The notes below the pieces were generated by a model. That model saw only the letters and a list, made by a program, of their open reading frames with translations. It searched no databases and was not told the DNA's origin. This document shows positions 7,960 through 61,028 of a DNA stretch of 64,000 bases, piece by piece. The stretch covers positions 1-64,000 of the forward strand of contig RDEW01000075.1 in NCBI GenBank assembly GCA_011109175.1. Direction: 5' to 3'. Origin of the DNA: Dicyema japonicum. Its lineage: Eukaryota > Animalia > Dicyemida. Position numbers and translations under genes: made by a program. Position 1 is the stretch's first letter; the number at the start of each line of letters is the position of its first letter.

Positions 7960-8300
7960 GCAGTAATTATTGTATATTACTTTACATGATATTCTGTTCT
8001 TATAGCTCATTCCTGTTATTTTTCTCAGGTGGTTCCAATTTCCGAATATATCCGGTGTTTTTTTCTAATAGATGATCCAAAAGCGCTCTGTCTTCGGAAA
8101 TTAAGTCGACGTCATCTGCATATATAATTTATTCTATTCTTTCTCTGTATAGCGGTCTGCTGTTCCAAATATATCGTGAATAGTAGGGGGAGATAATCTC
8201 CTTGAGAGGTGCATGTATTTGTACTAAATTTTCTCGAGTAGGTCTTTTCGACTCTCAAAAAGAGCTCAGTATTGGATAGTAGATTTCTGATGATTATTAA
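7960..8300 (-). mobile_element. RTE-clade RT fragment
   Basis: LLSNT...SQGD.LPLLFTIYLE...YADDVDLI; homologous to 37800-39030 and 41170-42486. Confidence 0.7.
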
Positions 8301-8785
8301 CTGTTTGTGTTTGTTAGTAAACCTTATTCTTTAAAAATATTAATTTGACAATTTTAACGAATTTCTATTCAAAAAAGCCTATTTTTACTCTCGGAAATAC
8401 CAGAGTAATAAAACAAGAAATTAAACACCATTGACTTATCTAAATTTGATTTAGAGAATTTATCAAGAAATGATAGAGTGATATAAATTTGATAAGATTT
8501 TAATTTATTTTAACGTTAAGACCACATCGTGAAAAATAATTGTAACAAACTTATTAAGAAATCTCAGAGATAGATTTGTACGCAAATTATATGGGAGATG
8601 ACCTTTTCATAGTCAAACAACATTCTTCTAAATAGATTTATACGTTTTTGAAAGAAATGTAACTGATTTGCCACGCCAATAATTCTGGAAGCTGTAAATC
8701 GTGTTCAATTGATAATTAAAACTTAAGTTTATTAAAAATTCAAAAACAATATAAAAGTTATTTAAAATTTCCTAATTAGTTGCGC

Positions 8786-10257
8786 ATGTCTAAGTTGCGG
8801 GTTGCACTTTCATTAAGGAATTCATTCACTAAATGCAATCTTCGCTGTCTTAACCTCCAAGAACACAGTAGTAAAGAACTTATGAAGAAGCATGGAGTCC
8901 AAGTTCAAAGATTCAAGGTGGCCTCCTCAACTAAAGAAGCTGTTGATGCTGCCAAGTATCTTCTAAATACCGGTTTTTAGTTCTTATATTTTCAGATGCT
9001 AAGGAACTTGTAATAAAGGCCCAAATTCTGGCCGGTGGAAGAGGAAAGGGTTACTTTGACAATGGTTACAAAGGAGGGGTTCAACTAACTAAAAGGTATG
9101 AACAAAGACTTATATGAGCCTTGGAGATGTCGAAAATATTGCCAGAAATATGTTGGGCAATCGACTAATTACTAAACAGACTCCACCAGATGGAGTTTTT
9201 GTCCAAAAAGTCTCTTAATTTACAATTGCCAGATTACTGTAGCTGAAGCTCTGGACATTGCAAGAGAGACGTATATTGCTATTGTCTTAGATCGGGCCAC
9301 ATGCTCTCCTGTGATTATTGGTAGTCCTTATGGTGGAATGGATATTGAAGAAGTCAAAGAAGAGTATATTTTCAAAGTTCACTTAAAATTAAGTTTTAGG
9401 AATTTATTGACATTAATGTGGGGTTAACAGTTCAACAGGCTGTAAAAATGGCTGAAAACTTGGAGTTTAAAGGCCCTCAGCTTACTCAGGTTTGTCTTAA
9501 AGTTATTTTCAAAGGCAGTTGATCAAATAAAAAGACTTTATGAGATGTTTACGAAAATTGACGCAACTCAGTTGGAAATCAATCCATTTGGAGAAACTCC
9601 ACAAGGAAATGGTATGTGAGATCGTTTTGCTTATTAATCAGTCGTTTCTTTTGATGCTAAGATAAATTTCGATGACAATGCTTTTTATCGTCAAAAGGAG
9701 ATATTTCTTCTGGACGACAAGAATGAATCTAACCCGTCTGAGTTGGAAGCAGAGAAGTTTGGATTTAACTACATAGCGACGGATGGCAACATTGGTTGCA
9801 TGGGTATTACTACATGGATTTAATTAGATTAGTCAACGGAGCTGGTCTTGCCATGGCTACAATGGACACAATAAAACTATATGGGGGAGAACCCGCGAAT
9901 TTTCTAGATTTGGGGGGAGCTGTCAAGCAGGACGTAATTGCAGAAGGCTTCAGAATAATTTTGTCTGATAAAAAAGTTTTCAAAAATGTAATTTTTAGGT
10001 TAAAGTTATTTTCGTGAACGTATTTGGTGGAATCGTTAATTGTGTTGGAGTTGCTAAAGGAGTTATCGAGGCTCTGAATAAACTTAAAACTGATGTTCCG
10101 TTTGTTGTCCGATTGTTAGGTTATTTGAAAGTTTAGTGTTATAGGAACTGGGGCTGATGAGGCTAATAAATTACTGAATCAATCTGGCTTGAACTTGCAT
10201 GCTGTTTCTGATTTTGACGAAGCCGCCCGAAAATCTGTCGAATCTCTCAAAGGATGA
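8786..10257 (+). CDS. SUCLG2: Succinate--CoA ligase [GDP-forming] beta subunit, mitochondrial; 9 introns
   Basis: Spliced reading gives [66 protein letters not shown]; basic presequence; GT-AG introns of 23,23,23,23,25,30,29,23,25 nt. Confidence 0.93.
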
Positions 10258-10324
10258 CTTTATGACTAACTTTTGGTTTGTTCTTTAATAACCTTTAATT
10301 TTTAATCTCCTTTCGATTTTTATC

Positions 10325-10647
10325 TAATAATAATAACAGCCTTTTCACGGGAGCCATAATATTTATAGCTCCGCATAGGCAGGACACACACTTTATATAA
10401 GCAAAGAACAGTTAATTTTAACTAATCGTAAAACCAAGGAATGATCTTCACTTCTCTTTTTCTTGTTTGTGGGTCCTTTCTAGACAATCCAGTTCCGCAG
10501 TGAGTATCCCTGATGACGGCGTCACTCGTCAAGCAAGCCCTTTCTGCATCGTAGATCCGTGGAACCTTCCACCAGGTGAACGGCACGAGAATCGAACCCG
10601 TAACCTAAGTCATTTTAGCCCGACACCTAACCACTATGCCACCCGGC
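10325..10647 (-). mobile_element. tRNA-derived SINE family A, full-length copy
   Basis: Minus strand has box A TGGCATAGTGG and box B GGTTCGATTC, a unique body, a stem-loop 3' end and a (TTA)n tail; second copy at 2394-2693. Confidence 0.88.
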
Positions 10648-10679
10648 AATCAGAGTCTATTAATCGACTTTTTATATGT

Positions 10680-10860
10680 TAAATTAAAATACAAATCCCT
10701 CGGAGACCAATACCATTTCACCCCATTGCTGTAGAGACAACTGGAACCGTGAGAGCGAAGACGGACGCCTTTCTCTCCAGCATTGAAAGCAAACTTGCCT
10801 CAAAAAGATGCTCGAAATGGCGATTATCAGCGGTAACCCCTTCGCCATTCTGTCGTCCTA
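10680..10860 (+). mobile_element. CRE-clade 3' fragment
   Basis: KYKSLGDQYHFTPIAVETTG motif. Confidence 0.65.
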
Positions 10861-10899
10861 GTTAGTTATAATTAGGTTGTTTTGACATTAATTAAACTT

Positions 10900-12549: not shown

Positions 12550-15250
12550 TTACACAACAACAGGGACCCTCAGTAAGTTAATTTTTCCATCATGACGACA
12601 GTTTCTAAATTGAACAATATCTTTCCGAGTGATTATTCCTACAATCTGTCATCTAATTACGAATAGCTCACTCTATGATCCTCATCAGTCACTAGAACGT
12701 GTCTTAGACCAAGATTACGAACTAAACGAAATATCTTTGAAAATGAAGCATTCTAGAATGAGCGCCAAAAAATTAACCACATCAACGGTATAAGGGGTAG
12801 GATTCACATAAGGACGTAAATCAATAGTGCAGTCCATGTCTTCTTCTTTTAATATCACACGACTGGAAGTTAAAAATCAGTAAATACAGCCACATTTTTG
12901 AGTTTAAAGTAGTTATCACTGATATCCTTGAATGCAAGTGTGTTTGCGCAGTCATATCCCCTTTCTACAAATGCCTTGCATTTAATAAATTGAGTAGTTG
13001 ATAACGCAAAATTATTCCTTGGAAGCAATGTCTCTCAATAGAATCGACCTTAAATAAAAATACAGAATACAAGTACAGAGGACTCCATATTGTCAATTAC
13101 TGGAAATCCTTGGTGCCTGCTATGTTTCCAATAACTCACATAGGGATCGAACTTTCACCACAGAAAGAATCACAGACACCGGATGAGCCATAACCTTTGA
13201 GGCATATATATGCGCGGTAAGAGCTGGAGGTTCCCAATCTAACAGAGGGATTTCAAGCACGTGTATGTGCATATCGAAAATTCCCTACGTTTATACTACA
13301 TCTCAACCTCATTGAAGTAATCTCCCACGCATTTAGACATAATCAATGCTATGAATCACTGGGAGAGCTAAAGAAGCAGTACCGGTCGCCTCAATGATTA
13401 TTACCGCGATTGTTATCACGATTCTTAGATTCCCTCCAAGTTGAGCAGCAGCTCCAACCAGAGCGAATAATTGCACATCAAATTTCTAAAATGTTTATGA
13501 TTCAAACAGCTGAGGGATCAATGGAGTTGAAAATTTGTCCAAAGAGTCTACCCCATGTGGCACCGATCACCATTGATGGTAGAAACAACCCGCTAGGGAC
13601 GTTAATCCCATAAGTCCAACAGGATGCCAGAAAATATGGAATAGCCACCTTTACAAGAAAACTAATGGAATAATAATCTCAAATAAAGCAAAAAAGGAAA
13701 CTTTCAGGATTGTGGAACAACTTTTTAATCAGATTTGACGGCGTTGTGAAAATAAAATCTGCGGCCACACTACTTTCCCCGCCAGAACAGGAAGCCTAAA
13801 AAATAAAGTCTAATCTTTACAAGCGAATCAAAACTGGAGACGGGGCCACCAACGTAACACTCATTAAAATTGGCAACACAGAGAAAAGATAAAACCGCCA
13901 AAACGGTAACAATGAGAAAACATTCAACAATCTTCAGAGCAGGATATCGGACATGCCTGAATCTAACAAAACCAAAACCTGAATCTGAAAACAGTCAAGG
14001 AATAATTTATTTGCACGAACAAAGCTCCTAGCAGTCCACCTAGAGATAATTACAAACAGGGAACCAATAATACCAAGCAGGGCAAACATGAAGATTTCCA
14101 GCAGTCCATATTCAACCACCTCAGAAATGACCACAAAATAATAACGTCAAATTTTCCAAAGTCAATTAATCCAACCGAAGAGAAACTGTAGCGGGGATCT
14201 ATTATGGTCCTCATCAAATTTAGAGTGAAGGTAGACATTACTGAGGCAAAAAACTAGATTATTTAGGTAAAAATACCGTTCTCCATATTAAAGACAAATT
14301 CCAGAAGCTGCATCCTTCTTCCAGACTAAACATGAGACCACCAATCGGGGCTCCAAAAGCTGCAGAGGCTCCTGCAGCAGCTCCGATTGACACAAAATCT
14401 CTGTTCTGTTGTAAGACGGAAATCGTTAAAAATCTATTTTGAGGTTAAAAAATACCTTGAAATCAAAGTTAAACGATAAACTCCTGCCTTGAGAAATACC
14501 AGCAATCACTGATCCTGAGTGAATCATGGGCCCTTCCTATGAATAAAACAATATACAGAACCTTGCCAATAGGAAGTCCAGCAGATACCGCAAAAACGAC
14601 ACCAATAACCTTGGCAAACAAGGTCTTAATTCTCACGACCTGGGGAATCTTGACTCCATTAAGGAAACATTTAATCTGAGGTATTCCACTTCCACTGGCA
14701 GCCGGCTAAATTTTAATAAGCTAAAAAACAGCATAAAGCGTCAAAAGTGAGGGTAGAATGACTAATGTCAAGGACAGAAATATCCAAGTAAAATATGGGA
14801 TAGCAAAGCTCTGGTCGACGAAGGAATTGTTCATTTCTAGATAATCCACAAAACTAACGATATAGCAAAAAGACTGAATTTAAAGTTTGAAATAAGTTTG
14901 TGAAATAGTCAATCAAAAGCCACAATGCCCAGTGCAGACTCCGATCAGGAGTGTGATCATCCATCTCATAATATTAATTTTCCAATGTCTCTAAACTTGA
15001 ACTGTAAATCCCAACTTGTGCACTCATGTTCTGCATTTGTCTTCTGTAAACCAGATTTTCACAATCTTCGTAATCTAAGCACTGTTATGGTTTGTATCTA
15101 ATAAATACCTCGTAGTGGGCAGAAATTGGTAATTTATGGTGTTCAGAAACTTGTTCGTATTGAACGGATGTGTCAGGTGCTTCATTATCTCCCAAGACTT
15201 CGCATTGTTCAATCACGTGCTATTTTAAAAGAATGATGATAAACTGCCAT
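12550..15250 (-). CDS. CLCN7: H+/Cl- exchanger CLC-7-like; about 19 tiny introns; several homopolymer frameshifts
   Basis: [62 protein letters not shown], two CBS domains (HQGFPV; LGLRH...IVGIITRKD). Confidence 0.9.
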
Positions 15251-18617: not shown

Positions 18618-20004
18618 ATGGATTGTTATCAAAATAATGTTTACTGTCAAGTTATCCAATTTAAGTTAATTTCAGCAACCTCCTAATAGTCAACACAAAT
18701 GTTTGTATTGCCTTAAAGCGTTTAAGAAAAAACACGATCTTACCCGTCATATAAGAACTCATACCAGCGAAAGACCATTCAAATGTGAAATATGTTTTCG
18801 GTATCTAATATAATTAATGAATCAGTCGTTTCAAACTGAAAAATTCATTAAAAATACACACAAATTCCCATTGTGAATTCCCACAATTTGGTTGTTACAT
18901 ATGCAGTAATCGCTATACCTACGAGAACTGCATGAAAAGACATTTGAAACAACATTTTGGTATATTTATAAGTTATTGTAGTTAATTCTGGTCAATTTTG
19001 TAGCATTTGTGGACTATATTTCACAATCTCTTCCGATTTTTACAAACATTTTAAATTTCACGATAGTAACTGTTCGAATCAAAATTTGAACAATTCAGAG
19101 GAATTTATGGTTATTTCTCACGAGAAAAGTCAAGATTTACAAAATTTGTCAGATCAACCAATAGAAGAGATCCAAATAGATCATATAAATGACAATTATT
19201 CAGAAAATGTGGAAAAAGCAGTCAGAACAGAGAATTTCAGATCTATAAACTGGCCTAGAAAAGAATCGGTGACATTAACCGTACGAGCTCCTCAGCATAT
19301 TTGCGATATATGTGGAAGATGTTTTTACCGCCCTTCTAGTTTGGCAGAACATGTTAGAATACATACAGGAGAACGACCATTTGAGTGTGAAATCTGTAAA
19401 ATGAGATTTGTGACAAAATCAGCTCTCAATGACCACTCAAATGATCATAAAAGTATGAATTTGACATGCCAATTTTGTTTGGAAACTTTTACGAGACGAT
19501 CTAATCTCAGCCGTCATAGAATTTCTGTCCATGGAGTGTCTCTAAATAAAAACAAACATCGTCCTTCTTTAATTTGTGAAATTTGTGGCCGGAAATTTAA
19601 TTTGAAGCAAACGTTGCAAAAACACATGAAGACACACATGAAAGAACCTTCAATTTCTCAGTTTCATTTCCAATTTAGAGAAATTCAAGTAATATTTGTG
19701 TTCTTACTATCAGTTGAACGATGGGAATGTTACATGGGAGGAGGAAGAGCCTACATTTGTGTATCCTTCTTGTTGTTATAGGAAACAAAATTTTATTAAT
19801 GAATTTCATCAGTATGTTTCATTTGTATTTAGATACTGCCGATTTTTCTGTAAATACTGTGGAAAGAGTTTCGACCGTGCTTCCAATCTTACGAGGCATT
19901 TGAATAATTTTCCGAAACGATGTTATGAATGTATGGTTTGTTTCCGACGATTTGCTCGCTATAATACTCTAACGTCACATGAATGTAAACCAATATGCTT
20001 TTGA
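18618..20004 (+). CDS. Multi-C2H2 zinc-finger protein (about 10 fingers), about 6 tiny introns
   Basis: Repeated CxxC-x12-HxxxH with HTSERPF/HTGERPF linkers; exons joined by 21-25 nt GT-AG introns. Confidence 0.85.
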
Positions 20005-21143: not shown

Positions 21144-24100
21144 TTATAATAAATTACGTAATTTATCAATTGTCTCGGTAGATAAGGATTCCAAAAAGCT
21201 CTTTAGAGTTTCAGGACATTCAGAAATATTTTCAAATTTTCTAAGTATAAATTGAAATCCTAAACTCTTTTAAACCATCAAAATTATTATCTCTGATGAA
21301 CCCATTTTCAAAACATGAATCATCCTTCATTTGATCCTCAAACCAAGTTGCAACTAGTAAATCGTTTTTTAGATCGTCATCAGTGTGCCCATGCACAATA
21401 AATAACTCTTCCAATTTCTTTAGAGTTAGAAGTTTATGCTTTTTGAGCAAAAAGTCACTAGCAAGAAGTCGCCTGAGTCTCCAATGAAAAAAACGTCTAC
21501 TATCCTCCCAATTTACAATTCCCTACAAATGGAAAAAATTCAACTTTAATAACGCCTAAATGTTTCATTCTAGTTGGCGTGTCATGAAGATTTGCAAAAT
21601 AATTAGCTGCACGGGTATAATGAGTGAAGTGACTATCATTTAATGGAACGCCGGAAGATTTAACCCAATTGTATATGTCATCCTTTTTGAACTTTATTTT
21701 AACGATAGCCTCTGGTTCGAGAATTCCACCTTTCGCTGTGGGATCAGCATACATTTCCATCCGTAAAGGATTAATTGCAGAATCAACCACAACCCAGCTC
21801 CCCACGCAATTCGCAGTGCTTCGGAATGTACACAAACACAGGTTGATTGTATGCAGACAATTCATCGACAATATAAGAACCAAATTTTAAGACCTCGTCA
21901 TACATATCTACAAAAAAGAAATAGTATTTGTACCCATCATCCCACCAGAAAACCCTCTCCAATTTGCAAATATAAAAAGAGGAAGTTGTTCTCGATTGAA
22001 ATCAGAAATAGCTTCAGCCATTTTGAATGAAGAATCTGGAAGAAGAATATGCGGAGCTTGTTGCACAACTCTAGCCTCAGACTTTGGATTAGCTGGATCA
22101 GCTGGAATTCTCTTATGGACAGTTTCTGTGTTCACTCCTATCATGCCTACTGGTATCCCTCCAATCCTTGCCCTTCCACAAATCAAGGTCATAGCGTAAT
22201 CTTTCATAGACTCCATAAATGACATGGGATCAAAAAAAGACTCTATCATATTCCGAATATTATTGGAATGACTTATTGGCATATCCACAGAAATAGGCAT
22301 AATCGGCAAAGCATTTCCAAAAACCTTAAATAAGAAAAAAATTACATTTGGTACAAAAGAAATCAGACTTAACACTCTGTAGATTCCATCTCTAACAGTA
22401 CTTACCACGTCCCGAGATATTCCATTCTTGTACATTATGTCGACACCTCCAAGTTGGTTATTACTGCTATAGACATCCCTGCCCAACACTTTGTTAAGTG
22501 CAGCAGCACCAGTCAAAATAATACTAGAGTCATCCATCTGAATTACTCGTCGGCTTAACCGTACCAAATAGGCACCAATTCCAACGGATCTGCACATAAC
22601 CTAAAATGTCAAAGAAATTTATACAAAACTGACTGTCATAATTTTGTTATAAGCCTTTGACATTGCCGAAGCAATCATGGCAGATCCATTCAAATTATCT
22701 ACACCAAAACCTTTTTCTCTCCCTGAAATATTAACCGAAGTTACCAATTATATCACTCACAACATAGTGAGTTTCCCCACTCTCAATCTGTCGAGGACTT
22801 GCGACGACAAAATCCTTTAGGTGGTCATAATCTGACTTAGTCAGATACATATAATGGAATCCCCACAATACATCCACACAAAAATACTTTGTCAGGTTTT
22901 TGAGGACAAATCCATTTGATTTTAAGACAATTTTTGATCTCATCATCAAGACCGATACGAGCACCAGAATTCATGGATAAGTAGACCAAAGGAACTCCCA
23001 TTTCGCAGGCAAGTTCGATCACTTTCTATAAATGAAAGAAAACTATTACGTTAAAAAATAAATCTTCATCAATTCCGAATGAACCTTGTTTGACAGTCAT
23101 ATCATTGCTGAGAACAATTATTTCTCTCCCTGTGGGATATTCAGGAGTAAATATAGTCATTTTCCATGCCACAACGCCCACATTCTTCATCCTGATGTCC
23201 TTATATTGGAGTAATTCAGTAGGAAGTTTACTATTTGGAAATATTTTCAAATGTGCTTTCCATATTCGTGATAGAGTAGTTTGAAACAATAATGGCACAT
23301 CATCGACATACAAAGCACCAATTCTATGGGCCAAAAAACGTCTTTTATTGCTTTTTAATGTGTGGGGAAGAGTGACAGGATCCCCGTCATTCTCACCAGA
23401 ATCCAATGCTCTCAAAACAAGCTGAAATAAAAAATTAATAGAACTTTTTCGTCTTCCAAAACTTCGCTATACATTGATATGTTCAGCATGAGCCCAGTTG
23501 TGTTGGAGACGAACACTCTAATGGGCCGTGGTGGAGAATTTCCCAGTCTAAAATAAAAATTATCAATAAACCTGACTTTAACTCTGACTTCACCTGTGAG
23601 TATTCGCAAGGAATTTAAACAAGCTAACTGTTTGTGCACCATCATCAAAATGACTCTTCCTAACTAACAATTATTATTTCATTACCGCTTGTCTATTGTC
23701 TAGTGTAAATGTCGGAACAAAATTGAAGAAAAAGTGATTCATTTCTGTTTTCGGGGCCATTGGATGAGAAAAACCATCCTCAACCATTGAGACTGCTTCG
23801 TGTAAAGCATTTTCTCCCTCTTTCAGTAAATATTCCGCAGACGCCTCCTAAAAATCAGTTAAAAGAAATCAACCGATGTCACCAATCCATGACTTCCGAT
23901 CAATACTCTAAGAAAAAATCTATAATTCAATGGATTTTCTTTTTCCTGAAATAATAAAAAAATTAACCCTTCCTAAAAACAGATACATTCGATAAGGTTG
24001 CTGTTTAATGGCCTCGACAGAATAGTTTGACAGCCGATCAATTTCCAACTGCCTGTCAAAGGAAGGGTCTAAATTTCTCAGTAATGTCTCCTCTTTGAAA

Positions 24101-27100
24101 TCCAACGATGCATTGAATGTGATGTAAAATGGTTCCCGGTTATTAGCAATCAAAATGAATGTAATTCTAACAATATTTGCATCCTTCATGGAATGTTTCT
24201 GAAATAATAATTTAAGATCACCAAATCCTGGCAAATCTGATTCAATTCCGGCACTTCAGTACAGTTTATAGCTACGACGAGAGTACTACTACTGGATGTC
24301 GATAATTCTTTACATTCAAATTTAGGAAATGAAGAGTTATGTTTGGCAAATTGTATAATCATCTCAAATTCACTTTAAAATGACGACAAAACCAAAAACC
24401 TGGCAAATTCATTCATCGAATTGTATGCTACCATATGGCCACAAATTTTGGAACCTTCTTGCCTTAAACCTTCCCGTTGGTCTCTTAAAATCATATAATG
24501 GCAAACCGTTCAAGTAAGCAAAAAAATGACATTAAATTATGGTCTGAAGGCAAGACTACATGTTTTAACTTGACAATATTAAATGAGATGTATGAACGCC
24601 GAATATAAACCTGAAATTACAGATATGTACTTACCTCCATAGCAGCCCTACAAATCTTGATATCGTGGTGAGTAAAAAATCCGACGAGGACATCAACTAT
24701 CGATGCCTCTGATGTAATCAAACACTCAAGTTGAGTTTTACAACCTTCATTCCCGTACTGATTTATTGCAGACAGGAGAAATGACTCTACTTGGTTTGCT
24801 CTCAGCTGTACTGGAGGCAATGATGCGGCCAGCAAAACCTTAAAGTCAATATGAGTTCAACTTGTCGGGCTCTTAAGGCTACACTTGAGTTGGCTGGACT
24901 AGTAAGTGTCGTCAATTTGCAGAGAGTTTTCTTTATATCCCTAATAATGGCAGCATCATGATCAAAGACACAATTCTATGAATAATATGGAGATATACAA
25001 TCAGCATCAACATCATTTCGTTTTTTTTCTCCACGTAGTGGTGAGAAAATATATTTTCGGATACCAAATCGACCTGATTCTTATGAAAATCCATAAGTTT
25101 CGCGATACAAGTATCATATTGGTCTATCGTGAAATATTTTTTAGATACTATGTTGAAAATGAATTTCATTATCGTAATAACGGTTAATGAATTTAACAAC
25201 TGTTGACTTGAAATGATTTCCAATTCCGTTTTTGTATCTAAGAAAACTCACATTAAGAAAACTCACCTGTCAAGAACCAAGCGTATTCCACTAACAGATT
25301 CCAAAGAGTCAGTGGCATAATTATCTATGATCTCTCTTATCTACAATTTTTGATAAAAGGAAACTTTTTGACCGGGAAAATGAACAACTAGAGAAGTTAC
25401 GTTTTCATTGTAAAGATTCAATTGGTACATTATTGAAGAGAGCAAATCATGGGGGAGACCACAGTCAACTGACATAATCTCAGTCTAAAAATGATCTACA
25501 TTTCTTGCTTTTAATTCTTCCAAAGGCAAATGTGGGTTCAGAGCACAATCCATAAATGTCTTAAGTAAATTTTGCGCCCATGAATGAAAAAAAGGAGAAG
25601 GAACAACGTAGCCATCTAAGAGGGATTCAATAGTAGAGCAAATTTCCACATATTTTTCACACAAATTTTTATCAGCAGTGCGACCAGTTATTCCCATGAA
25701 ACCATTTTCCCAGTCAGTCACAGTACAATTAAATTTATCATCTTTCGGAGTGAAATTTGCAAGTAAAGTTCCAGCCAAAACAGGAATATTAGGAACGCAT
25801 GCATGAGTAATCCTTAAAATTAAAAATCAATGTAACCATCCTTCATGTGTTGTAAAAAGTTGAATTACCATCTTAAGAGATTCTATTTGAGCATACGGTT
25901 GATTTGCACCTACAAAAGATCCATCAGGGACTAAAAAGGACAATAATCTTCCAGAAGAAGGAGATCTATAGATTGAAAGTTAAAAATACCTGAGGGAACT
26001 CGTATCACTGTGTGGCAAAAACTGAAATGTTCTTCCATCAACAGTGACTCTGTAGCAATCATTGATGTGCTCTAAATAGGCAATATGAGTAGATTCAGAA
26101 AGAATAATCATAAGAGCTGAATCAGGCAATCTGTGAACATTTAATGTAACAATATCTCCATTCAAAACGACAGCAAAACGGCAATCTCCTATTCGGGACA
26201 CCTAAATAAAGTAACAAATCAAACTTGAAAAGTAAATTTATTAGTCTTCGATATCAAAGTTATCGTGAATGTATTTTTTAGATGATGTGAAGGTAAAAAT
26301 TGGCCTCTAAAATTAAATTTCAAGAACATACCGTTGTAGAGATTCTATGTATTTGTCCAAATTTAGGGATCTATCTGCTAGTAATACAGAAGCACAAAGA
26401 GCTGGCAAAAGAAAAGATATAGTCTGGGAATTTTTATATGACTCAAAAAATGTCGTATTGTATGTATTTAAACAGAATTTAGAGCAAGAGAGAACGTTGA
26501 TTAGCGATTCGTTGAAAGTATTGAATTCAGAAAGAACTAACATATGTTTAAGCGTTGATATCAATCGTCTTTAAAATCATTTAGAAAATTTACTTTCTAG
26601 CGGTTTCCCGATGGTTTCCACAAGCAAAAATATGGGCAATTTGGGAATCTGCAGATGGAATGAGAGTAGATGGAGACGCAAGTCCAGAGTAGCCCCAAAC
26701 GTCGTGCCAGCTGTAAAACATAAATTTATGAAGTTTTCCAGTGGATGAAGGCAAATTAAAATCTCCAGCGCGAATTCGGGCACTAATAACGTGTTTTTTT
26801 GGGGGCACTCGTGTGGAAAAGTCGGTAATATCTGAACAGAATTGATTTATATGTGAAATTGAAGCTAACGAAAGGCCCATAGCAATCTAAATTTTGTTAA
26901 AAATTGAACCTGCAACTGGAGGGCTGGGATATTAACTCCAGTAATTGCTTCAGTGCAAGGATGTTCAACTTGAAGGCGGGGGTTTACTTCTAGAAAGTAG
27001 TAATTCTTGTTTATTTGGTTGTAAAGAAATTCAACGGTTCCCAATCCGACATATGATGAAGCTTTCCAAAGTTTAACACTAGATTCTTCCATTTTCCGTA

Positions 27101-27981
27101 GAATTTCAGCAGGTATCTCAGCTGGTGCTTCTTCGATAACTTTTTGGTGACGAAACTGAAGCGAACAGTCACGTGAATACAACGAAAGGGCATTCCCATG
27201 ACAATCTCCGACCATTTGTATTTCAATATGCTTCGCGTTCTCAGCAAACCGCATCAACATAATGGGGGAGCCCGGACATTCTATAGAAACCTGATATAAA
27301 GCGTCAGAAATTCCACTTTCTGCTCTCACAACACGGATTCCTTTTCCTCCTCCCCCAGCGGTAGCTTTTACAACCAACGGGAAGCCCACTTTTAAATATT
27401 CAGTTTCGTTGTCACTCCAGGGCAATATTGGGATATCGTTAAGAAATGCTAAGTTCGTAGCGTTTTTTTTATCCCCCAAAAGCTCAATTGAATTTGACGA
27501 AGGTCCTATTTTTATACAGCTTAGCAAAACCTATAAAATAAATTCCTTTCATTGAAAGTTTACGAGGAAGATCGGGATTTTCTGATACCTTTCCCCATCC
27601 TACAAAGACAGCCTAGATAATAAATTTTACATACGTCGATATTTTTGGTAACAGCATATTTCACAACTACATCGACACTGATAATTCTTACAATAACACA
27701 ATCATCAGCAAAACGAATGCTTTCTTAAATAAGAAATATTAGAAACCGTTATTGCATAAAATATCTTCTTTGGTGGTTAAGAGAATTAATTTTATAGCCC
27801 TTTCGTCGTTGAATTCTTCAAAACACCATTCTCGAATAGAACGGATTCCTTTCATGGCTGAGAGGCCATTAGTTGCAATTAAAACTCTTCTTATTGGATT
27901 TGCATTGTGCTTTTTAATGAAATTTTCAAAAGAAGAAATCTGATTAATTTCTATTTCAACGTGGTTCTGATGATTAATCAT
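21144..27981 (-). CDS. ACACA: Multidomain acetyl-CoA carboxylase (BC-BCCP-central-CT), about 32 tiny introns
   Basis: [39 protein letters not shown], biotinyl [61 protein letters not shown]; one G-run frameshift in ELRGGSW. Confidence 0.95.
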
Positions 27982-28064
27982 CAAAAATCATTTTTAAATT
28001 ATTAATTTTAATAGTCATAACAAAAAAATATTTTTATAAATTATAAAGATAATTCAGTCAAAGC

Positions 28065-35534: not shown

Positions 35535-36903
35535 TTAATAGTAATAATCACCTTTGGGGTAAATATTTGGCTGCTGATTGATCTCAGAGGACGCAAAATA
35601 ACTTCCTCCACTAACACCCGCATCGCTTGTATTATGGGGAGGCACATATCCCGTATTATAATGTTGTTTATAACCATCAAAATTAGGTCTATACAAATGA
35701 CGATCACGTGGAGGGAGATTTCTAAAAGAGCAGTTTGTGGGTTGTTTGTGGGCAGTTTGTGGGTTGAAAGAAGGATAATAAAGATTCAAATTGGCTCCTG
35801 GAAATACTTGAGGATTCCGAGTTTCGATGGGAAAACCGACACCTGACAGATTCTGCTTAAGGGTGGGCCTTTCAAGTCCCTGTTTATGTAAAAGTCCATC
35901 AACATGACTATACATATGACTCATCTCTGTCATTTTTTGCAAAAAAATTTGGGGGGAGTCTGGAAACATATTTAAATTTAGGGGGATATTATGACACATA
36001 TTTACTGGCTTAGGAACATTTTGATACATATTGACTGATTGAGGGACATTTTGATACATATTGACTGATTGGGGGACATTTTGATGCATATTGACTGATT
36101 GAGGAACATTTTGATGCATATTGACTGATTGAGGAACATTTTGATGCATATTGACTGATTGGGGGAAATTTTGTTTAATATGTGAAGTATGTGGTCTAAA
36201 ACTAGACAAATAAGTGGTACTAAAAGTTATATATAGGGAAACTCGCTAGGATTGTATTTATGTTCGTTTTTCGAAGCCTCGCTGTATTGTAGACTCAAAT
36301 TATAGAAGTTCTGGGCAAGGTCGTTAAAAAGTGAAAGTTGTCTACGATCAAATGTGAGAATAACATGTCAATGGCGGTTATTTCGGTTTCTATCATCTGT
36401 TCCATCACTTGGGTACGTTTCTTGCAGTCTACAAATTCGGGAGTGTTGTGATCTGTAGTAGGATCAGAATTCTCTATCAATTCCACCATTTTATCCATCA
36501 GAGACTTAAACTCAACAAACTGAGAGTACAGGATCAATTTCTACGGTCACTGATTGAGAAACATGCTCAGGAAAATTAAAAGTGACAAAGTTCGAAGGAA
36601 AAAATCCGCTTTCTCCATTTTGGTTGAAGCCTTCGTACCAATATTCGTTGCTATTTGGTTATATAGTGAGTACGAGTCATTTGTGATGGTCATTATGTCA
36701 CCAGTCCTGATTGTAAGTTCGTTCTCTTCGACGGCTTCAAAGTCAAAGAGTGCCATGACTTGCCGCGTTTGTGACTTTGGTTCGGTGGCTACTGGTTTTG
36801 ACTTTTCCTCGAATTCTTGCAGTGAAAGCTTTAAGGCTTTATGAAATTATGCTTATCATGTACCTAATTCTAGATTTTTCTCTTCTTCGTCTAAATTCGA
36901 CAT
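35535..36903 (-). CDS. STAM: STAM/Hse1-like ESCRT-0 subunit (UIM-SH3-GAT-Q/P tail), 5 tiny introns
   Basis: EEEKNLELALKLSL (UIM); ALFDFEAVEENEL...WYEG...GFFPSNFV (SH3); VEID..LMDKMVELIENSDPT (GAT). Confidence 0.85.
35985..36175 (-). repeat. Coding 30-bp tandem repeat (QNVPQSVNMH/Y, about 6 units)
   Basis: Unit CAAAATGTTCCTCAATCAGTCAATATGCAT within the last STAM exon. Confidence 0.92.
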
Positions 36904-46317: not shown

Positions 46318-47428
46318 ATGAACATACTCTATAGTAGATATGCGGTGATATTATCGTCTAGTATGCTATGCACATCTGGTTTGGTGCTTTTAAAGTAACA
46401 CAAGTCATTATTTTATTAGAGATTACATGTCTGGGCCAAAATATGAGGGACTGAACAGATTAGATGGAAAGAGGGTGATTATTACGGGGGCAAACAGTGG
46501 TCTTGGTCGAGAACTTACGAGTGAATTATATAAGCGGGGTATTCATAGACAAATATTGATGGCGCTAGGGTTATTATGGCCTGTAGGGACGTCAAAGGAG
46601 CTAAGGAAGTTAGAGATGAAATTATAACGGCAAAGAATGAACACGTGGGAGACGTAGTCGTACGAAGACTTGATTTAGGGTCTCTTGAGTCGGTCTACTC
46701 GTTTGTGGATAATATCAATAAAAGTTGGCGTCTAAGTAATATTAGGGAATGAGGATGTTGACTACCTCATCAATAATGCGGGGATCATGAATCAAAAGAG
46801 AAACGTTAGTGAGGACGGAATTGAGAAGCATTTGGCCGTGAATTATATCGGTTAGGATTAATTACCAACATAAGGTCACTTTCTACTTACGAATTTGATA
46901 ATTAAGAATTTCACGTGCATGAAGGTTGTGAATGTTCTCTGCAGAACAAAAAACAAAGTCATTGATTTTAAAGATCTTAACAGTGAAGCCACTCCCTTCG
47001 ACGATGAACGTGCTCACTCTCAGAGCAAATACGCCTTGTTTCTGTTCACTAAGGAGCTGGCGAAGAGAAGAAAGGAATCTGCTACGGTCGTCTGTGGAGT
47101 TCTTCCCGGAGTGGTCAACACTAATTTATTGAAAAATTGGATTGACTCCGGCTTTGCCTTGATCAGATATATGCGCAAGGTGTTTCTATGGGTCACGGCG
47201 AAATCTCCCAACCAAGGAGTTCAGCCTATCCTCCGTGTTATTTTGGAGGAGATCCCTTCAGGGAGCATTTATTAGTTATCTTTTTGCACATTTTGTAGTT
47301 TGGACAAGCCTTACGAAATCTCTGGACCCAATGATGACTCAGTTGCTAATAGATTGTGGAGGACCAGTGAACTATGGTCGAGACTTGATGAATACACATC
47401 CAAGTTAAGATTGGATAACATTTCATAG
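46318..47428 (+). CDS. Retinol dehydrogenase 11-14 family SDR (RDH13-like), 5 tiny introns, catalytic Tyr replaced by His
   Basis: ITGANSGLG, RGARVIMACRD, LDLGSLESV, LINNAG, VNYIGHFLLTNL, PGVVNT, AKSPNQG, ANRLWRTSE. Confidence 0.88.
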
Positions 47429-49333: not shown

Positions 49334-52300
49334 ATGCTGGTTGTCATGTTATCATTTTTCTCTTCACTCACAGTTAGTCAACTGATGAGTCTGACTAATT
49401 ACATCATCAAGGAAGGTCCTCAAAATAGTGATTTTGGCTATAAGGTTGTGGCTGGGGATAAAAAGTTCGTTTTGATGCTCTCAATCCAGAATATATGTCA
49501 CTGCCCCTCAAGATGACTGGTCATTTTACATTTGCAATTTTTCGAAATCCAAGTATTGCGAGAAAGTAAATCTACCAAAACCCGGTACCCACGTGATCTA
49601 ATATAAGCAGAAAAAGCGAATGACTACAAGATAGCTACTTCAGTCAGCCATTTGGGGACGAGTATTGACTATCTTAATGAGACCTTGCTGGTTAGTGGTA
49701 TCACATTAATCAGATATGTGCCTACAATTTGAGAGTGAAAACGTATAGGGAGAACGGGATGACTGGAGGGTGTTTCCTATATGAGGACCTTCTCGACATG
49801 ACAAAAGTCAAATACTCAATCCCTTGTTTCGATGAAAAATACCCAGACGGGTTCATGGCAATCTATGATACTTGCCTGAGTGGATTTACGGCCAAACTAA
49901 TCCCCGTAAGGATAAAATTGATTAACATTTAGGGAGGAATGCCTGTCTTCACAAGTCCAAATTTCGCAATGGGAGTAGGTGGAATCAACACTCACTCCAA
50001 TCTTGCGTATTTTGGAAGAAAGGACAAATATTTTGGTAGTTTATTTTCTCATCTCTGGCTACGATTTGACGTTTTGGAAGTCTGAAGAGGGATTTGATTA
50101 TTTTTTCGCCTCATCCGTGAAAGGGTCCTCCAAATTTGGGGGAACCGTTTATTTGATTTCAATGAATAAGACATCCTTTGACGTAAAATGGAACTACGAG
50201 AATGATGATTTTGGGTCGTTATTTGGGTATTCCATAAAACTTGGGGATTCGAATAACGATGGGTTCATCGAGCTGTTCGTATCAGCCCCGTTTTACTGGA
50301 AGCGGGATGTTTCAGGGGGGTTCACTTCGGGGGCAATATTTCACTATTCTGTAAAGGGCCAGGTTATTGCTGTTCTTCAACCCCAGAATATAGAAGAAAA
50401 GACTCTACCGAAAATTATTTCGTATTCTCACTTGGACCCAACTAAGGGATATTCTTCGAACTTTGGATTTTCCTTTGAGGTTTTAGATATCAATAATGAC
50501 TCATTTGATGGTTTGTGTTGTTCTCAAAACAAGATTTGATTGTTGGTGAACCGAATTTTGGCAATGGACGAGTTTATGTTTTCCTTGGTAATGGAAATGG
50601 ATTAAATGACAGTCCTGATCAAGTTCTGGTTATTTGATAAATTCAGATAATTGAGGCTGACGAATTAAACTTCTTTCTCGACCAATTTGGATATTTTGTA
50701 GGGAATGGGGGAGACATGGACTCGAATGGCTACACAGATGTCGTTGTAGGAGCGAAGGGATCAAATATGGTTTTTAGAGGAATCATTTAGGTTGCGATGT
50801 TATTCTCCATCTCAAATGTACATCTGACGTATGATATAGCATTTTATCTTCTACAGTGGACGAAGCAGTCAACGACCTAGTCCTGATGAAGGGGGTTAGT
50901 GGAATCTGCGTAAAAACAATTATCACTGTGAAATCAGATAAAATTATCAAGTTTAATTCTTACTTATTTCAGTGAAGAGGTCGTTGTTAAGTACAAATTG
51001 AAGATCCCTGCTGATAGACAAGGTCTCTTAGCCTTGTTTTACAGTACCAAAACTCTTGAGGAGGTGAGCCACGTGACTATCAAATCAAATTCAAGCTCGG
51101 CTCTCATCAGCAGTTCAATATTTGTGGCAGTATTACCGTGTATTTACTAAGAAAACAAATCTCCGGTATTTTGAAGGTCAAACGATCAAAATTTATGCAG
51201 AATTTACGGCCAATAGTGAGGATAAACCCATATTCAACAATTCATTGGAACCACTTACCACCCAAATAGTCCATCCGGAGACAGTCTGCAGACAATATTT
51301 TGTATAATGTGGGAGAATGACAATTTAGCTACCACTTAAACGGTCGTCTGATTTCAACTATTCGAAAATTACGGTGATAGGGGATTTGTCCGACCTGTTA
51401 ACTCTTGCTTTATTTTAGTCACTTTGTGCATTATTCTGCTTGCTTTCCGACGAATAGAATATTCAAAGTTGGCTTCAGCGTGAAGAACATATCCACTGCT
51501 GGGGGCAATATCTCTTTTCAGCTCTATAGCACATTTCCGTTGATTTTGTATCACATCGATAATTCTGTGGTTATTTGATATTCTTAGATTTAGGTTACAT
51601 GCAGCAATAATAGTCTCAATGTGAAATCATGCTTATTCGAGACAAAATCGCTGAGATCTAACAGAATTATCTATTTTAATTTCTTTCTTTTGCTCTCTGG
51701 GGGAATTCCAGTTCATTCAACCCCAGTGTTTGAAGCCAGCATCAAATTGTATGATTTAGCCTCATTAAGAAAAACAAGAAAGGGAATAAAAACTGAGAAC
51801 ATCTGGAAACCACGAAATATTCCGTTTTTGAAGACCAATCACTCAATAATCGGGTTTTAGTTTTTTTTATTAATAAAGGCATGGGTTTTTTTCAGCGACT
51901 GAGTTGGCCTCGAATCAATTGCACGTTCACTTTGTCCACAAATACTTTGTATAGCGGGTATAAGCGAATTTAGATCTCTAACAAGAAATCCGCTGATTAC
52001 CCACTAAACGTGACTATTTGGTGGTCATCGGCATTTGGGGACGAATACAAATTGTGGCCGACGGAAGCCCCTGAAGTATTTACCATCCATTATTTTAGGT
52101 ATACGGTGGGACCTGTTTTTTGAACGATACGTACATTGACCCACGTGGCTTTGTATTATTTTGTTTGCTTATCGCAATAGACTAAGAATTCAAGCCAAAT
52201 TTCGCAAGATTTCAATATCAACGTATTTGGTAATTGATAACTTAGAAATGTGGAACATCGAACTTGAAGGGCCTTATTCCGATCACATGCATTGTACATC

Positions 52301-52675
52301 CACGGAAAAACTCCTCATTAATCCAAATCAAGTCAGATTTCTATCTGGACAACGACGTTTACCCGTAAAATTCACTTTAGGAACTGAAAAATAAATTCAA
52401 TGAATATCACTACCTAACCTCCATTGGTTGCATTTCGGAAATCGACTACTTTTTGAATGAGGGACCGACCCATGCAGTGGTAATGTAGTGCATCGCTAGT
52501 ATAGATCATTTCAAAACTACAGCAAAGTTCGTTGAAGGTGGCAAAAGACGTGATTTGGCCACTTTATTTATTTGGAATTGGATTTTTGATATTTTTACTG
52601 ATGATCTTCATTACAAGAGTATTTTCTGACTAATTTTAGAAATCACGGATTAATGTATTTAAATATCTAAATTAA
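49334..52675 (+). CDS. Integrin alpha chain (FG-GAP propeller, leg domains, TM); many tiny introns; middle exons not fully resolved
   Basis: Signal peptide; SDFGY..., LFGYS...DSNNDGFIELFVSAP, NFGFS..LDINNDSFDDLIVGEP, QFGY...DMDSNGYTDVVVGA; C-terminal TM VIWPLYLFGIGFLIFLLMIFI. Confidence 0.85.
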
Positions 52676-55448: not shown

Positions 55449-56226
55449 ATGTCAGAAAGTTCTTCTACTGAATCAACCCCCTCAGATGTTATCATGGAGA
55501 GACATAAAGATTCCGATGGGGAGGAAATTTACGAGCTAGTTAACAGTAAGCATAGTATTTAAATGGTAGCCTTGCCAGTCTCGGTTTTGATTGGGAACTT
55601 AAGCTCTAAAGTAACGGTCGAAGAACTCAAACTATTTTTCTATGCGAATGATATAAATTTATCAAACGTGGTTTTAATGGATAGGTAGACATGTGATTTA
55701 TTTTTCTAGATATTCCAAAGCTGTAGTTCCCCCTGGGAAACTTCCCACTGCAATTAACCTCATAGGAAGACTGCTTCGTGGAAGGAGAATATCTATAATC
55801 GTAACTGGAGAGTCAATAGAGGATATTGATAAATCCAATCCAATGATCTCAATCTTCGTGAATTACCTCAATAAGAGCACCACGAGAGATTCATTACTAA
55901 ATACATATCCCAAGGCCATATCAGCCTCTGTCGTCTATGATCATAATACTGGAGAATCCAAATGGTGAGAAAACATTAGATAGTTTAGTTACGGATTTGT
56001 AAATTTTGGGAACGAAAAAGACGCCTATCATGCAATGAAAACGGTCACCATGGTGGACGATCAGAAAATCGAAAATGCATTTTCTAGTATTAAATATTTG
56101 GGGACGTATTTAGGAACAGCAAGGAAAATTATGGTTGATAAAGATGCCGAAATAGAAACGTGGACTGAAAATGGTCAGACCACTAAGAAGAAAAAAAGGA
56201 AAAAGAAGAAGAAAAGACGAAACTGA
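55449..56226 (+). CDS. Two-RRM RNA-binding protein with Lys-rich tail (nucleolin-like), 3 or more tiny introns
   Basis: VLIGNLSSKVTVEELK; IFVNYL...VVYDHNTGESKCYGFVNF (RNP1); KKKKRKKKKRRN tail. Confidence 0.75.
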
Positions 56227-59989: not shown

Positions 59990-61028
59990 ATGTCTAACCA
60001 GGATCAATCAAATATTAACGCTAGGCATAATATAGTAAAGAGTAGTGATGGACGAATAATAAAAATTATTCCCAGAAGGTCTCTCTCAAATACTGATAAA
60101 ATGGCAGTGGCCGAACCATCCTCAGTCCGACTTTTAAATGTTAAGCCGCTTCCTCAGATAGGGATAATTCCACCCACAATTAAGCATGAGACAATAATCA
60201 AGCCTGTAAAACGTACTACTGGCCGAAGTTCCACATCGTTCAGTTCAAAACCACCGGAATTGGTTGTCTGTAACGTAATTTTGTACTTTCACCACTCGCT
60301 GTGGGATTGATTTGAGGCGTTTAGCCAGATATGGTCGCCACGTGGAACTTAAATTGGGCTCATCGGTGCTTAGTTTTATGATTACTTTTTAGATTTGTCG
60401 CAAAAAGCTCCGCGACCCAGTTTGCACAGCAAATGTTTCGAATACTGGTAAGATTACGGTTATGGGCGCCACAAGGTTGGTTTGATTTTTATACAATTTT
60501 TTGTTGCCTTACTTTTAGTTTGGATGACTCTTATATTGCTGCTAGACGGATTGGGCGGTCTCTGTTCCGAATGGGCTTTCCTGTGAGGTTCTCTCGTTAC
60601 GGAGTGGTGAATATATTAGCCTCGGCCTGCCTGTCATTTGGAGTTGATCTCTTTTCGTTCCATAGGCGTCATGTCTATGATGACTCTATTTTGTAATATG
60701 TTGTATCATTTTGTAGTGATAGGAGAGAGTTTGAGAGTGAAGTTCATTCTGGAGCCAACTACTCGTTCATTGAGAGTTCGACGTCCTTCGTAATATTCAG
60801 TACTGGAAGCATTAATGTGACTGGGTCTTCTATGAAACTATTGAGGCTGACTTGGATAGAATCTACCCTTATTTGATGGAGTTTGCCACTGATCGACCGA
60901 AAAGACCTAAAAGGGTGTATACTGGAAAGGACAAGAAACTTAGGTTTATCTCGAAGTACGTGCAATCATCGTCAGAGGAAGAGTCGTTTGATTCTGAGTA
61001 CACGACTACTGAGGAAGAACTTGATTGA
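59990..61028 (+). CDS. TBPL1: TBP-related factor 2 (TRF2/TLF); 3 short introns; homopolymer frameshifts
   Basis: NVICTF..RCGIDLRRLA..G.HVE, KLRDP..TANV..TGKITVMGATS....IAARRIGR.L.RMGFPVRF..Y.VVNILA, FESEVHSGA.Y, IFSTGSINVTG, IYPYLMEF; the ELHP-type second repeat and 'IYP' end are TRF2-like rather than TBP-like. Confidence 0.8.

What the first reader, a model, noticed from the sequence alone, without database searches (positions are those of the whole stretch)
8786..10257. Ruler-like splicing: dense 21-30 nt introns with almost no splice-site information
Seen: SUCLG2 introns are 23,23,23,23,25,30,29,23,25 nt. About 90 introns read across 10 genes are nearly all 21-30 nt (one of about 43 nt in TRF2). 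Donors are degenerate (GTTTTT, GTCTCT, GTTCAC, GTTGAA, GTTTCC) and no branch-point consensus is visible. Known: introns this small occur in dicyemids, ciliates, chlorarachniophyte nucleomorphs and microsporidia, and are below the size a standard animal spliceosome accommodates. Inference: the spliceosome is reduced and selects sites mainly by distance, without much U1/U6 donor pairing.
Basis: partly seen in the sequence, partly recalled or inferred. Interest (0 to 1): 0.75.

Follow-up and report, generated by a model that had tools for sequence, protein, structure and literature searches.

The report
Dicyemid-type tiny introns, hidden branch point
Genes in this DNA, likely from a dicyemid (a tiny cephalopod kidney parasite already known for very short introns), are split by 21-30-base segments that are likely spliced out as ordinary introns, with a faint branch-point signal and low G+C content likely marking each one and distance likely only choosing the exact ends.

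Summary
The lengths are right. A length-blind spliced alignment returns the nine SUCLG2 introns (23,23,23,23,25,30,29,23,25 nt), giving a 415-aa protein 53-60% identical to homologs. I read 94 introns in 9 genes; 93 are 21-30 nt, one is 43. The organism is likely a dicyemid: length quantiles 22/23/24/25 and 36.9% GC match published Dicyema japonicum values, and the closest CLCN7 is a divergent 'Octopus sinensis' protein. Tiny dicyemid introns with weak donors are in print since 2007-2008; a 2026 paper adds genome-wide logos. 'No branch point' and 'almost no information' fail: 82 of 86 introns have an A between +16 and -6 (shuffles 62.7), and composition plus weak sites separate introns from same-length decoys (AUC 0.96) far better than length (0.70). 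Distance does seem to pick the ends: the first AG at 21 nt or more is used in 84 of 86, and competing exonic GTs are depleted (1 of 177, 9.2 expected). A reduced spliceosome is untested (no genome, no RNA run). Three introns seem to end in TG/GG, unverified. The scan noted the same features before on other dicyemid DNA.

The parts
8786..10257 (+). SUCLG2 (GDP-forming succinyl-CoA ligase beta), 10 exons, 415 aa after removing 9 introns
8973..8995 (+). SUCLG2 intron 1, 23 nt, phase 1
9096..9118 (+). SUCLG2 intron 2, 23 nt, phase 2
9210..9232 (+). SUCLG2 intron 3, 23 nt, phase 0; sea-spider model P0043 has an insertion at the same site
9377..9399 (+). SUCLG2 intron 4, 23 nt, phase 0
9490..9514 (+). 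SUCLG2 intron 5, 25 nt, phase 0
9612..9641 (+). SUCLG2 intron 6, 30 nt, phase 1, in-frame stop if retained
9804..9832 (+). SUCLG2 intron 7, 29 nt, phase 1; skips an AG at +24 (one of two exceptions to the first-AG rule); P0043 has an insertion at the same site
9976..9998 (+). SUCLG2 intron 8, 23 nt, phase 0
10120..10144 (+). SUCLG2 intron 9, 25 nt, phase 1
12550..15250 (-). CLCN7, 18 introns entered (22-27 nt; 2 flagged); several 1-2-base frame breaks
18619..20004 (+). C2H2 zinc-finger gene, 4 introns (22-25 nt)
21144..27990 (-). Acetyl-CoA carboxylase, 32 introns entered (21-29 nt; one GC-AG at 25508-25485; 1 flagged)
22863..22887 (-). ACC intron, 25 nt, apparent GT-GG end, A at -7, next AG at 52 nt; unverified
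35535..36903 (-). STAM-like SH3 gene, 5 introns (23-27 nt; 1 flagged)
46319..47408 (+). Short-chain dehydrogenase (RDH-like), 5 introns (22-25 nt)
46539..46561 (+). RDH intron, 23 nt, apparent GT-TG end, A at -7, next AG at 30 nt; unverified
49337..52394 (+). Integrin-alpha-like gene (FG-GAP), 15 introns entered (21-27 nt; 3 flagged)
50036..50057 (+). Integrin intron, 22 nt, apparent GT-TG end, A at -7, next AG at 45 nt; unverified
55449..56226 (+). RRM-like gene (label from an RNP1-like motif, recalled; no Pfam hit), 3 introns (24-25 nt)
59990..61028 (+). TBP-family gene (TRF2-like), introns of 27, 43 and 24 nt
60476..60518 (+). 43-nt TRF2 intron: no AG between +21 and its end, single A at -8

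Best explanation
These segments are likely ordinary U2-type spliceosomal introns of a likely dicyemid, shrunk to near the smallest size the spliceosome can hold, and likely recognised across the intron by several weak cues added together, with distance likely choosing the exact ends. Shown in the sequence: GT(GC)..AG ends, 26% G+C against 41% in decoy pairs, a residual AG|GTW-G donor, an A-rich TnAY zone 6-9 nt before the AG and rarely before +16, and a G-poor, T-rich last 9 nt ending in YAG. Inferred: (1) U/A-rich composition plus the weak donor and acceptor mark a stretch as intron; (2) U2 pairs loosely at the TnAY and uses its A as branch point; (3) two steric minima, about 15-16 nt from donor to branch A and about 6 nt from branch A to the end, set the 21-22 nt floor; (4) the first AG past that minimum is taken, and a GT at a workable distance upstream is taken, so competing GTs are selected against. 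This is a minimum-distance rule on top of weak signals, not a fixed-length ruler, and it needs no loss of U1.
For: Exact, length-blind recovery of the SUCLG2 introns; 47 of the 56 introns of SUCLG2, ACC and CLCN7 kept exactly as the aligner called them. Branch-zone A and TnAY enrichment, with a control window (-13..-10) not enriched, 62 vs 64.9. The A peak moves with length at a best slope of 0.75, so it tracks the 3' end more than the 5' end. First-AG rule 84 of 86, nearest-GT rule 80 of 86. GT purge 1 of 177 vs 9.2 (P 0.0009), or 3 vs 9.0 under a position-specific null (P 0.02). Cross-validated AUCs: length 0.70, composition 0.91, all sequence features 0.96, all plus length 0.97. Frame-blind decoding F1: 0.43 with length only, 0.80 with sequence only. 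The 43-nt TRF2 intron keeps its A at -8 and has no earlier AG. Intron-like pairs of 21-27 nt that are not multiples of 3 are rarer in exons than in synonymous shuffles (3 vs 11.7+-3.4, P 0.005). PMC13644364 reports the same 'GTa' donor, bare AG and weak A stretch in D. japonicum.
Against: No RNA or lariat evidence for any of these introns; the branch A is a statistical inference. The windows were chosen after seeing the data (one search corrects over positions). 39 of 86 introns were placed or adjusted by hand or ab initio, which can favour AT-rich, near-modal calls and inflates the AUCs. Depletion of internal AGs beyond +21 is not significant (2 of 202 vs 45 of 1460, P 0.11). Two introns skip a legal AG. 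Six of 86 lack an A at -9..-6. The exonic-decoy depletion is also seen at 28-45 nt (13 vs 23.9, P 0.02), is absent for 3n lengths (9 vs 9.2), and is one of 12 classes tested. CTRAY is not enriched (2 vs 3.9). The assembly has frame-breaking indels outside SUCLG2, so some lengths may be off by one.
Confidence: 0.7

Rival explanations
1. One reading: a reduced spliceosome with little or no U1/U6 donor pairing measures a set distance and cuts at GT and AG.
For: Hard floor at 21-22 nt, 69 of 86 within 22-25 nt; first-AG rule and GT purge; only about 0.3 bit at +3..+6 over background and no +6T enrichment; dicyemid pathways are generally gene-poor (PMC6736024 abstract).
Against: Length entropy 2.75 bits, range 21-30 plus 43; 397 exonic decoys of the right length vs 85 introns; residual -2A, -1G, +3W and +5G; D. 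japonicum has 1,216 introns over 100 bp (PMC13644364 supplement S8); core snRNAs or U2AF conserved in myxobolids and Stentor (PMC13644364, PMC9505925).
Confidence: 0.15
2. The branch A is the main anchor: U2 or SF1 binds first, the donor is the GT about 15-18 nt upstream, and the acceptor is whatever lies 6-8 nt downstream, even TG or GG when no AG is in reach. This extends the best explanation and is not exclusive of it.
For: All three non-AG ends have an A at exactly -7, and their next AGs lie at 30, 45 and 52 nt. Two lie in genes with few or no other frame breaks (RDH none, ACC one). An earlier scan note (e1-9936715, unchecked) reports transcript support for GT-TG introns in another likely dicyemid.
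Against: The three ends could be assembly errors, since indels are frequent in parts of this window; I could not check them against reads. The branch-zone feature alone separates introns from decoys poorly (AUC 0.57 as a yes/no feature; 0.78 as a weight matrix).
Confidence: 0.35
3. The organism is not a dicyemid but a myxobolid myxozoan or an unreported third animal lineage with tiny introns.
For: No named dicyemid protein was hit in any search; no cnidarian or myxozoan row was in my tree.
Against: Quantiles 22/23/24/25/27 fit D. japonicum (22/23/24/25/32) and not T. kitauei (20/21/22/54/317), M. rasmusseni (20/20/22/61/2912), H. salminicola (24/25/27/38/978) or M. honghuensis (20/21/64/332/1381). 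GC 36.9% vs 36.7% and many LINE ORF2 copies. The closest CLCN7 is filed under Octopus sinensis, the host of D. japonicum: 72% identical to the window but only 42-45% to six molluscs, which are 56-73% identical to each other. No myxozoan name appears among the listed hits.
Confidence: 0.1
4. The segments are not introns but assembly or annotation artefacts, or unspliced pseudogene insertions.
For: No RNA seen; the window has real frame-breaking indels.
Against: Nine of nine SUCLG2 gaps come out GT-AG and restore a full-length protein; independent contigs show no indel there; the related P0325 has 7-8-residue read-through insertions at five of the same sites; D. japonicum gene models were built with RNA-seq splice evidence (PMC6736024 methods).
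Confidence: 0.02

Closest known systems
Dicyemid ultra-short introns (D. acuticephalum, PMC2222250 and PMC2483917; Dicyema sp., PMC6543705; D. japonicum, PMC6736024 and PMC13644364)
   Same: Length quantiles 22/23/24/25; high density; ancestral positions; donor reduced to GT(a); bare AG; weak A stretch before the AG. PMC2483917 already called dicyemid donors the weakest known (0.5 bit) with no branch signature.
   Different: Nothing in kind. This window adds counts that I did not see in the text of those papers (figures not held): first-AG rule, GT purge, decoy discrimination, TnAY at -6..-9 with a +16 floor. PMC13644364 says the A's move away from the AG as introns lengthen; here they move only slightly (slope 0.75 toward 3' anchoring).
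Myxobolid myxozoan ultra-short introns (PMC13644364)
   Same: Under 30 nt, reduced 5' and 3' motifs, weak A stretch read as branch point.
   Different: Shorter mode (20-22) or a long tail (Q75 38-332 nt); another phylum; U2 and U2AF1/2 were shown conserved there and are untested here.
Paramecium 23-26 nt introns (PMC12862383, PMC5014332)
   Same: Median 24-25 nt; low intron G+C and near-modal length go with efficient splicing, which parallels the composition signal here.
   Different: Ciliate; strong counter-selection of stop-free 3n introns there, while 26 of 86 are 3n here (my set may miss stop-free 3n introns).
Stentor 15-16 nt introns (PMC9505925) and Bigelowiella nucleomorph 18-21 nt introns (as cited in PMC2222250)
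   Same: GT-AG, branch A at a nearly fixed distance from the 3' end (6 nt in Stentor).
   Different: Those are near fixed-length; here lengths spread over 21-30 nt with a 43-nt case and the branch A spreads over -6..-9. All snRNAs are present in Stentor.

Membership tests
U2-type spliceosomal intron | GT(GC)..AG termini | tested here: met
   91 of 94 entered introns (85 GT-AG and 1 GC-AG among the 86 unflagged); 3 end TG/GG
U2-type spliceosomal intron | Removal restores a conserved reading frame | tested here: met
   SUCLG2 415 aa, 53-60% identity to 18 homologs; RDH, STAM, ZNF and RRM open after splicing
U2-type spliceosomal intron | Branch adenosine near the 3' end | tested here: met
   Statistical only: A in -9..-6 in 80 of 86 vs 65.0+-3.7; TnAY 60 vs 34.4
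U2-type spliceosomal intron | Excised from RNA through a lariat | not testable with these tools
   No RNA holder listed
Dicyemid ultra-short introns | Median about 24-27 nt, narrow distribution, short tail | tested here: met
   22/23/24/25/27 vs 22/23/24/25/32
Dicyemid ultra-short introns | Donor reduced to GT(a), weak A stretch before AG | tested here: met
Dicyemid ultra-short introns | Host genome is a dicyemid | tested here: inconclusive
   Indirect but consistent: GC, LINE load, sister CLCN7 filed under O. sinensis; no named dicyemid sequence was available to compare
Myxobolid ultra-short introns | Mode 20-22 nt or long tail (Q75 38 nt or more) | tested here: not met
   Q75 25 nt, 1 of 94 over 30 nt; my aligner allowed long introns and found none that held up
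Fixed-length ruler introns (Stentor or nucleomorph type) | Nearly invariant length (2-4 values) | tested here: not met
   Ten length values, entropy 2.75 bits; length alone AUC 0.70
Reduced spliceosome (loss of U1 snRNP, SF1 or U2AF) | Absence or divergence of snRNAs and core proteins | not testable with these tools
   No genome held; no snRNA in the window at gathering or E<=1 thresholds, which says nothing for the genome

The most novel reading that the evidence does not exclude
The dicyemid spliceosome sets both ends from the branch adenosine by minimum distance (donor about 15-18 nt upstream, acceptor 6-9 nt downstream), so strongly that about 3% of introns end in TG or GG when no AG is in reach and exons are purged of GTs at the competing distance. 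Components that normally span a longer intron (U1 snRNP, SF1/U2AF or the SF3b footprint) would be trimmed to fit 22 nt. This would be an animal spliceosome whose geometric floor can be read from about 29,000 natural introns.
Probability: 0.25. Interest if true: 0.6.

Novelty: already known. Interest (0 to 1): 0.25.

Why it matters
The existence of these introns and their weak signals is published, most recently genome-wide in September 2026 (PMC13644364), which ends by saying that how they are recognised is still open. This window gives testable numbers toward that question: a branch A at -6..-9 and not before about +16, which adds up to the 21-22 nt floor; a first-AG rule; purging of competing donors; and the result that composition and weak sites, not length, tell introns from decoys. 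If the TG/GG ends are real they would show position overriding the AG. None of this yet shows a changed spliceosome.

Tried and rejected
No whole genome is held, so no snRNA or splicing-factor inventory. No RNA holder listed for SUCLG2; this is not evidence on expression. The four laid runs are contigs of one sample that retain the introns. I had no read check for 12300-28100 or the rest of the window, so the indels and the TG/GG ends stay open. Rfam: 0 hits at gathering; one Flavo-1 match at E 0.14, below its cut-off, taken as chance. ARAGORN: 0 genes. My ab initio gene finder was too weak outside its training genes, so six genes were read by hand from three-frame displays. The spliced aligner bridged assembly indels with false introns of 12, 13, 16, 34, 46, 47, 50, 75 and 106 nt; these were dropped or redrawn by hand. 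Eight of 94 entered introns were flagged and left out of all statistics. Four more candidates were never entered (two stop-free in-frame ones in ZNF and RRM, two frame-discordant ones in the integrin gene), so 3n introns may be undercounted. The first CLCN7 tree had two of five blocks out of frame by my error; its identities and its mollusc grouping are discarded and one search replaces it (quick method, no cnidarian or named dicyemid rows, six rows dropped). One search used a wrong start and a wrong intron 6, corrected; one search stopped on a bug and was rerun. The p44 search of 50% representatives found nothing above 47% identity among the 150 listed. By eye I first expected an A patch at +8..+12; it is not enriched. 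Donor strength does not rise significantly with length (rho 0.12, P 0.29). Searches for a dicyemid spliceosome inventory ('Dicyema'+'spliceosom', 5 papers; 'dicyemid'+'spliceosome'+'loss', 6 papers) showed none by title or abstract start; the GT-TG search (12 papers) listed no dicyemid paper. Ogino et al. 2010 was seen only as cited in PMC6543705.

Full report
Observation. The SUCLG2 gene runs from ATG 8786 to the stop at 10257 on the + strand. Removing nine GT-AG segments of 23, 23, 23, 23, 25, 30, 29, 23 and 25 nt gives 415 aa that are 53-60% identical over 389-424 aligned residues to the 18 full-length homologs I used of the 54 found. To avoid imposing the answer I wrote a profile-to-DNA aligner with a flat intron penalty (minimum 12 nt, no upper limit). 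It returns exactly these nine; with no splice-dinucleotide requirement it gives the same length for 8 of 9. Eight are not multiples of three and the 30-nt one holds an in-frame stop. Contigs of four coded runs from one sample show six substitutions and no indel over 8000-10368 and keep the segments. A sea-spider model (P0043) has insertions at introns 3 and 7, which suggests ancestral positions (inference).

Window-wide set. I entered 94 introns in nine genes: SUCLG2 9, ACC 32, CLCN7 18, TRF2-like 3, RDH-like 5, STAM-like 5, zinc finger 4, integrin-alpha-like 15, RRM-like 3. Eight were flagged (three non-AG ends, five with unsure frame or boundary) and left out, leaving 86. Of the 56 in the three genes with homologs, 47 stand as the aligner called them; nine were set by hand or ab initio, and the 30 others by hand. 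Lengths: 85 of 86 are 21-30 nt, 69 are 22-25, one is 43; quantiles 22/23/24/25/27; 26 are multiples of three. Internal exons have a median of 125 nt and a minimum of 50. Outside SUCLG2 the window has 1-2-base frame breaks in CLCN7, p44, TRF2, ACC and the integrin gene, likely assembly errors, so some lengths may be off by one.

Organism. The genes are animal-type and fast-evolving; no close protein exists for the SUCLG2 exon (best 76%), the ACC exon (57%) or p44 (47%). The best CLCN7 hit is P0325, 'LOW QUALITY PROTEIN ... [Octopus sinensis]' on a 294,666-base contig. It is 72% identical to the window protein over 503 columns but 42-45% to six molluscs, which are 56-73% identical among themselves; the two form a long-stemmed clade (SH-aLRT 100, quick tree of 18 rows without cnidarians). 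It carries 7-8-residue insertions at five of the window's intron sites, as a gene caller would leave when reading through 21-24-nt introns. O. sinensis is the host from which D. japonicum was collected (PMC6736024), so P0325 is likely a co-sequenced dicyemid (inference). Window GC is 36.9% against 36.7% for D. japonicum, which is also rich in LINE ORF2 (RVT_1 hits in 3 of 68 ORFs). D. japonicum's intron quantiles are 22/23/24/25/32 over 29,387 introns; the four myxobolids differ in mode or tail. I put a dicyemid at about 0.9.

Signals. Introns are 50% T, 29% A, 10% G and 11% C inside, against 21% G and 17% C in flanking exon. Over that background the donor keeps little but not nothing: exon -2 A 50%, -1 G 51%, +3 W 93%, +5 G 26%; +4 and +6 are at background (+5G P 7e-5). 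True donors match the animal consensus (agGTaagt in PMC13644364) at 5.16 of 9 positions against 4.17 for 326 exonic GTs. The 3' end is YAG in 71 of 86, with G at 5% in -9..-3 against 13% upstream. Adenosine peaks at -7/-8 and +16: maximum-over-position permutation P 0.0024 and 0.0008. An A lies between +16 and -6 in 82 of 86 (62.7+-3.6 in shuffles), TnAY in 60 of 86 (34.4+-4.4), and a control window at -13..-10 is flat. By length class the peak is at +16 for 21-22 nt, +16/17 for 23, +16-18 for 24, +18/19 for 25; the best slope is 0.75. Sixteen plus six gives the 22-nt floor; reading the A as the branch point and the floor as two steric minima is inference.

Is it a ruler? Given the true donor, the first AG at 21 nt or more is the acceptor in 84 of 86 (55 of 56 in the homology set), although 18 of 84 have a second AG within 30 nt. 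Given the acceptor, the nearest GT at 21 nt or more is the donor in 80 of 86. Exonic GTs that would give 22-27 nt occur in 1 of 177 chances against 9.2 expected; under a stricter position-specific null it is 3 against 9.0. Internal AG depletion beyond +21 is not significant (P 0.11). So distance seems to settle the ends. It cannot find the intron: the 21-30 window keeps 602 of 2,844 candidate pairs, of which 85 are introns, 397 wholly exonic and 120 overlapping. Leave-one-gene-out AUC is 0.70 for length, 0.81 for donor, 0.87 for acceptor, 0.91 for composition, 0.96 for all sequence features and 0.97 with length; frame-blind decoding reaches F1 0.43 with length alone and 0.80 with sequence alone, thresholds chosen on the same data. 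Hand curation may inflate these. The 43-nt TRF2 intron has no earlier AG and one A at -8, which a fixed ruler would not allow. Intron-like non-3n pairs of 21-27 nt are rarer in 13,203 nt of coding sequence than in 400 synonymous shuffles (3 vs 11.7), but so are those of 28-45 nt (13 vs 23.9), and 3n ones are not; this is modest support only.

Non-AG ends. Three introns needed for frame end in TG (RDH 46539-46561, integrin 50036-50057) or GG (ACC 22887-22863). Each has an A at -7 and no AG until 30, 45 or 52 nt. I first took them as assembly errors. An earlier scan note on other likely dicyemid DNA (e1-9936715, unchecked) reports transcript support for GT-TG introns, and RDH has no other frame break, so I now give better than even odds that at least one is real. 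They are unverified here.

What is known. PMC13644364 (whole main text read; supplement table rows, legends and part 59; figures not held) reports introns under 30 bp in myxobolids and D. japonicum, donors reduced to GTa, bare AG, a weak A stretch proposed as branch point, and conserved U2 and U2AF1/2 in myxozoans. PMC2483917 (passages) calls dicyemid donors the weakest known and sees no branch signature in 41 introns. PMC2222250 (passages) gives a mean of 26.2 nt for 16 introns; PMC6543705 (passages) a median of 27; PMC6736024 (passages) 6.2 introns per gene. PMC9505925 (passages) finds all snRNAs in Stentor, with a fixed branch A. PMC12862383 (passages) links low G+C and 23-26 nt length to efficient splicing in Paramecium bursaria. 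PMC5014332 (passages) covers 3n selection in ciliates. Two searches showed no dicyemid spliceosome inventory. The scan holds 18 notes with these words in at least 3 genomes, 8 shown, among them a near-identical reading (e1-10356729); none for this genome.

Verdict. The feature is real and already known. Interest 0.25; the novel case (branch-anchored geometry with real TG/GG ends and trimmed components) has probability 0.25 and would merit 0.6.

Noticed in passing
P0325 (XP_036354959.1), contig of 294,666 bases: A CLCN7 filed under Octopus sinensis is sister to the window's gene (72%) and distant from molluscs (42-45%), with read-through insertions at the same tiny-intron sites; likely dicyemid DNA inside the octopus assembly.
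   Followed up: partly
window 46539-46561 (+), 50036-50057 (+), 22887-22863 (-): Three introns with apparent TG, TG and GG ends, each with an A at -7 and no AG nearby.
   Followed up: partly
window 12550-15250, 15911-16727, 21800, 49337-52394, 59990-61028: Several 1-2-base frame breaks in CLCN7, p44 (GTF2H2), ACC, the integrin gene and TRF2, many in homopolymers or short repeats; likely long-read assembly errors, uneven along the window (none in SUCLG2, RDH, STAM, ZNF, RRM).
   Followed up: partly
window 10325-10930; second copy 2395-2696: Very high-copy short repeat just 3' of SUCLG2: summed contig depth up to about 7,600 times the single-copy depth in run X1, 91% identical copy over 307 nt; no tRNA or Rfam hit. 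SINE-like by size and copy number (label inferred).
   Followed up: partly
window 25508-25485 (-): One GC-AG intron of 24 nt in ACC, called by homology.
   Followed up: yes
window 15911-16727 (+) and 43793-44050 (+): p44 and a divergent dynein light chain look intronless in an intron-dense genome.
   Followed up: partly
window 32247-33111 (-): Broken, apparently intronless beta-tubulin-like sequence (Pfam Tubulin E 1.9e-5), possibly a retrocopy.
   Followed up: no
window 860-2200, 41171-42198, 57224-57838, 62418-63900; 29006-29761; 53723-53962: Many decayed non-LTR retrotransposon pieces (RVT_1 in three ORFs), a Tc5/CENP-B-like ORF and a DDE_3 (Tc1/IS630-type) fragment; 11% of the window is repeated within itself.
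   Followed up: no
window 35535-36903 (-): STAM-like gene seems to start at the UIM, without the N-terminal VHS domain (domain order recalled), and has a QNVPQSVNMH-type peptide repeat.
   Followed up: no
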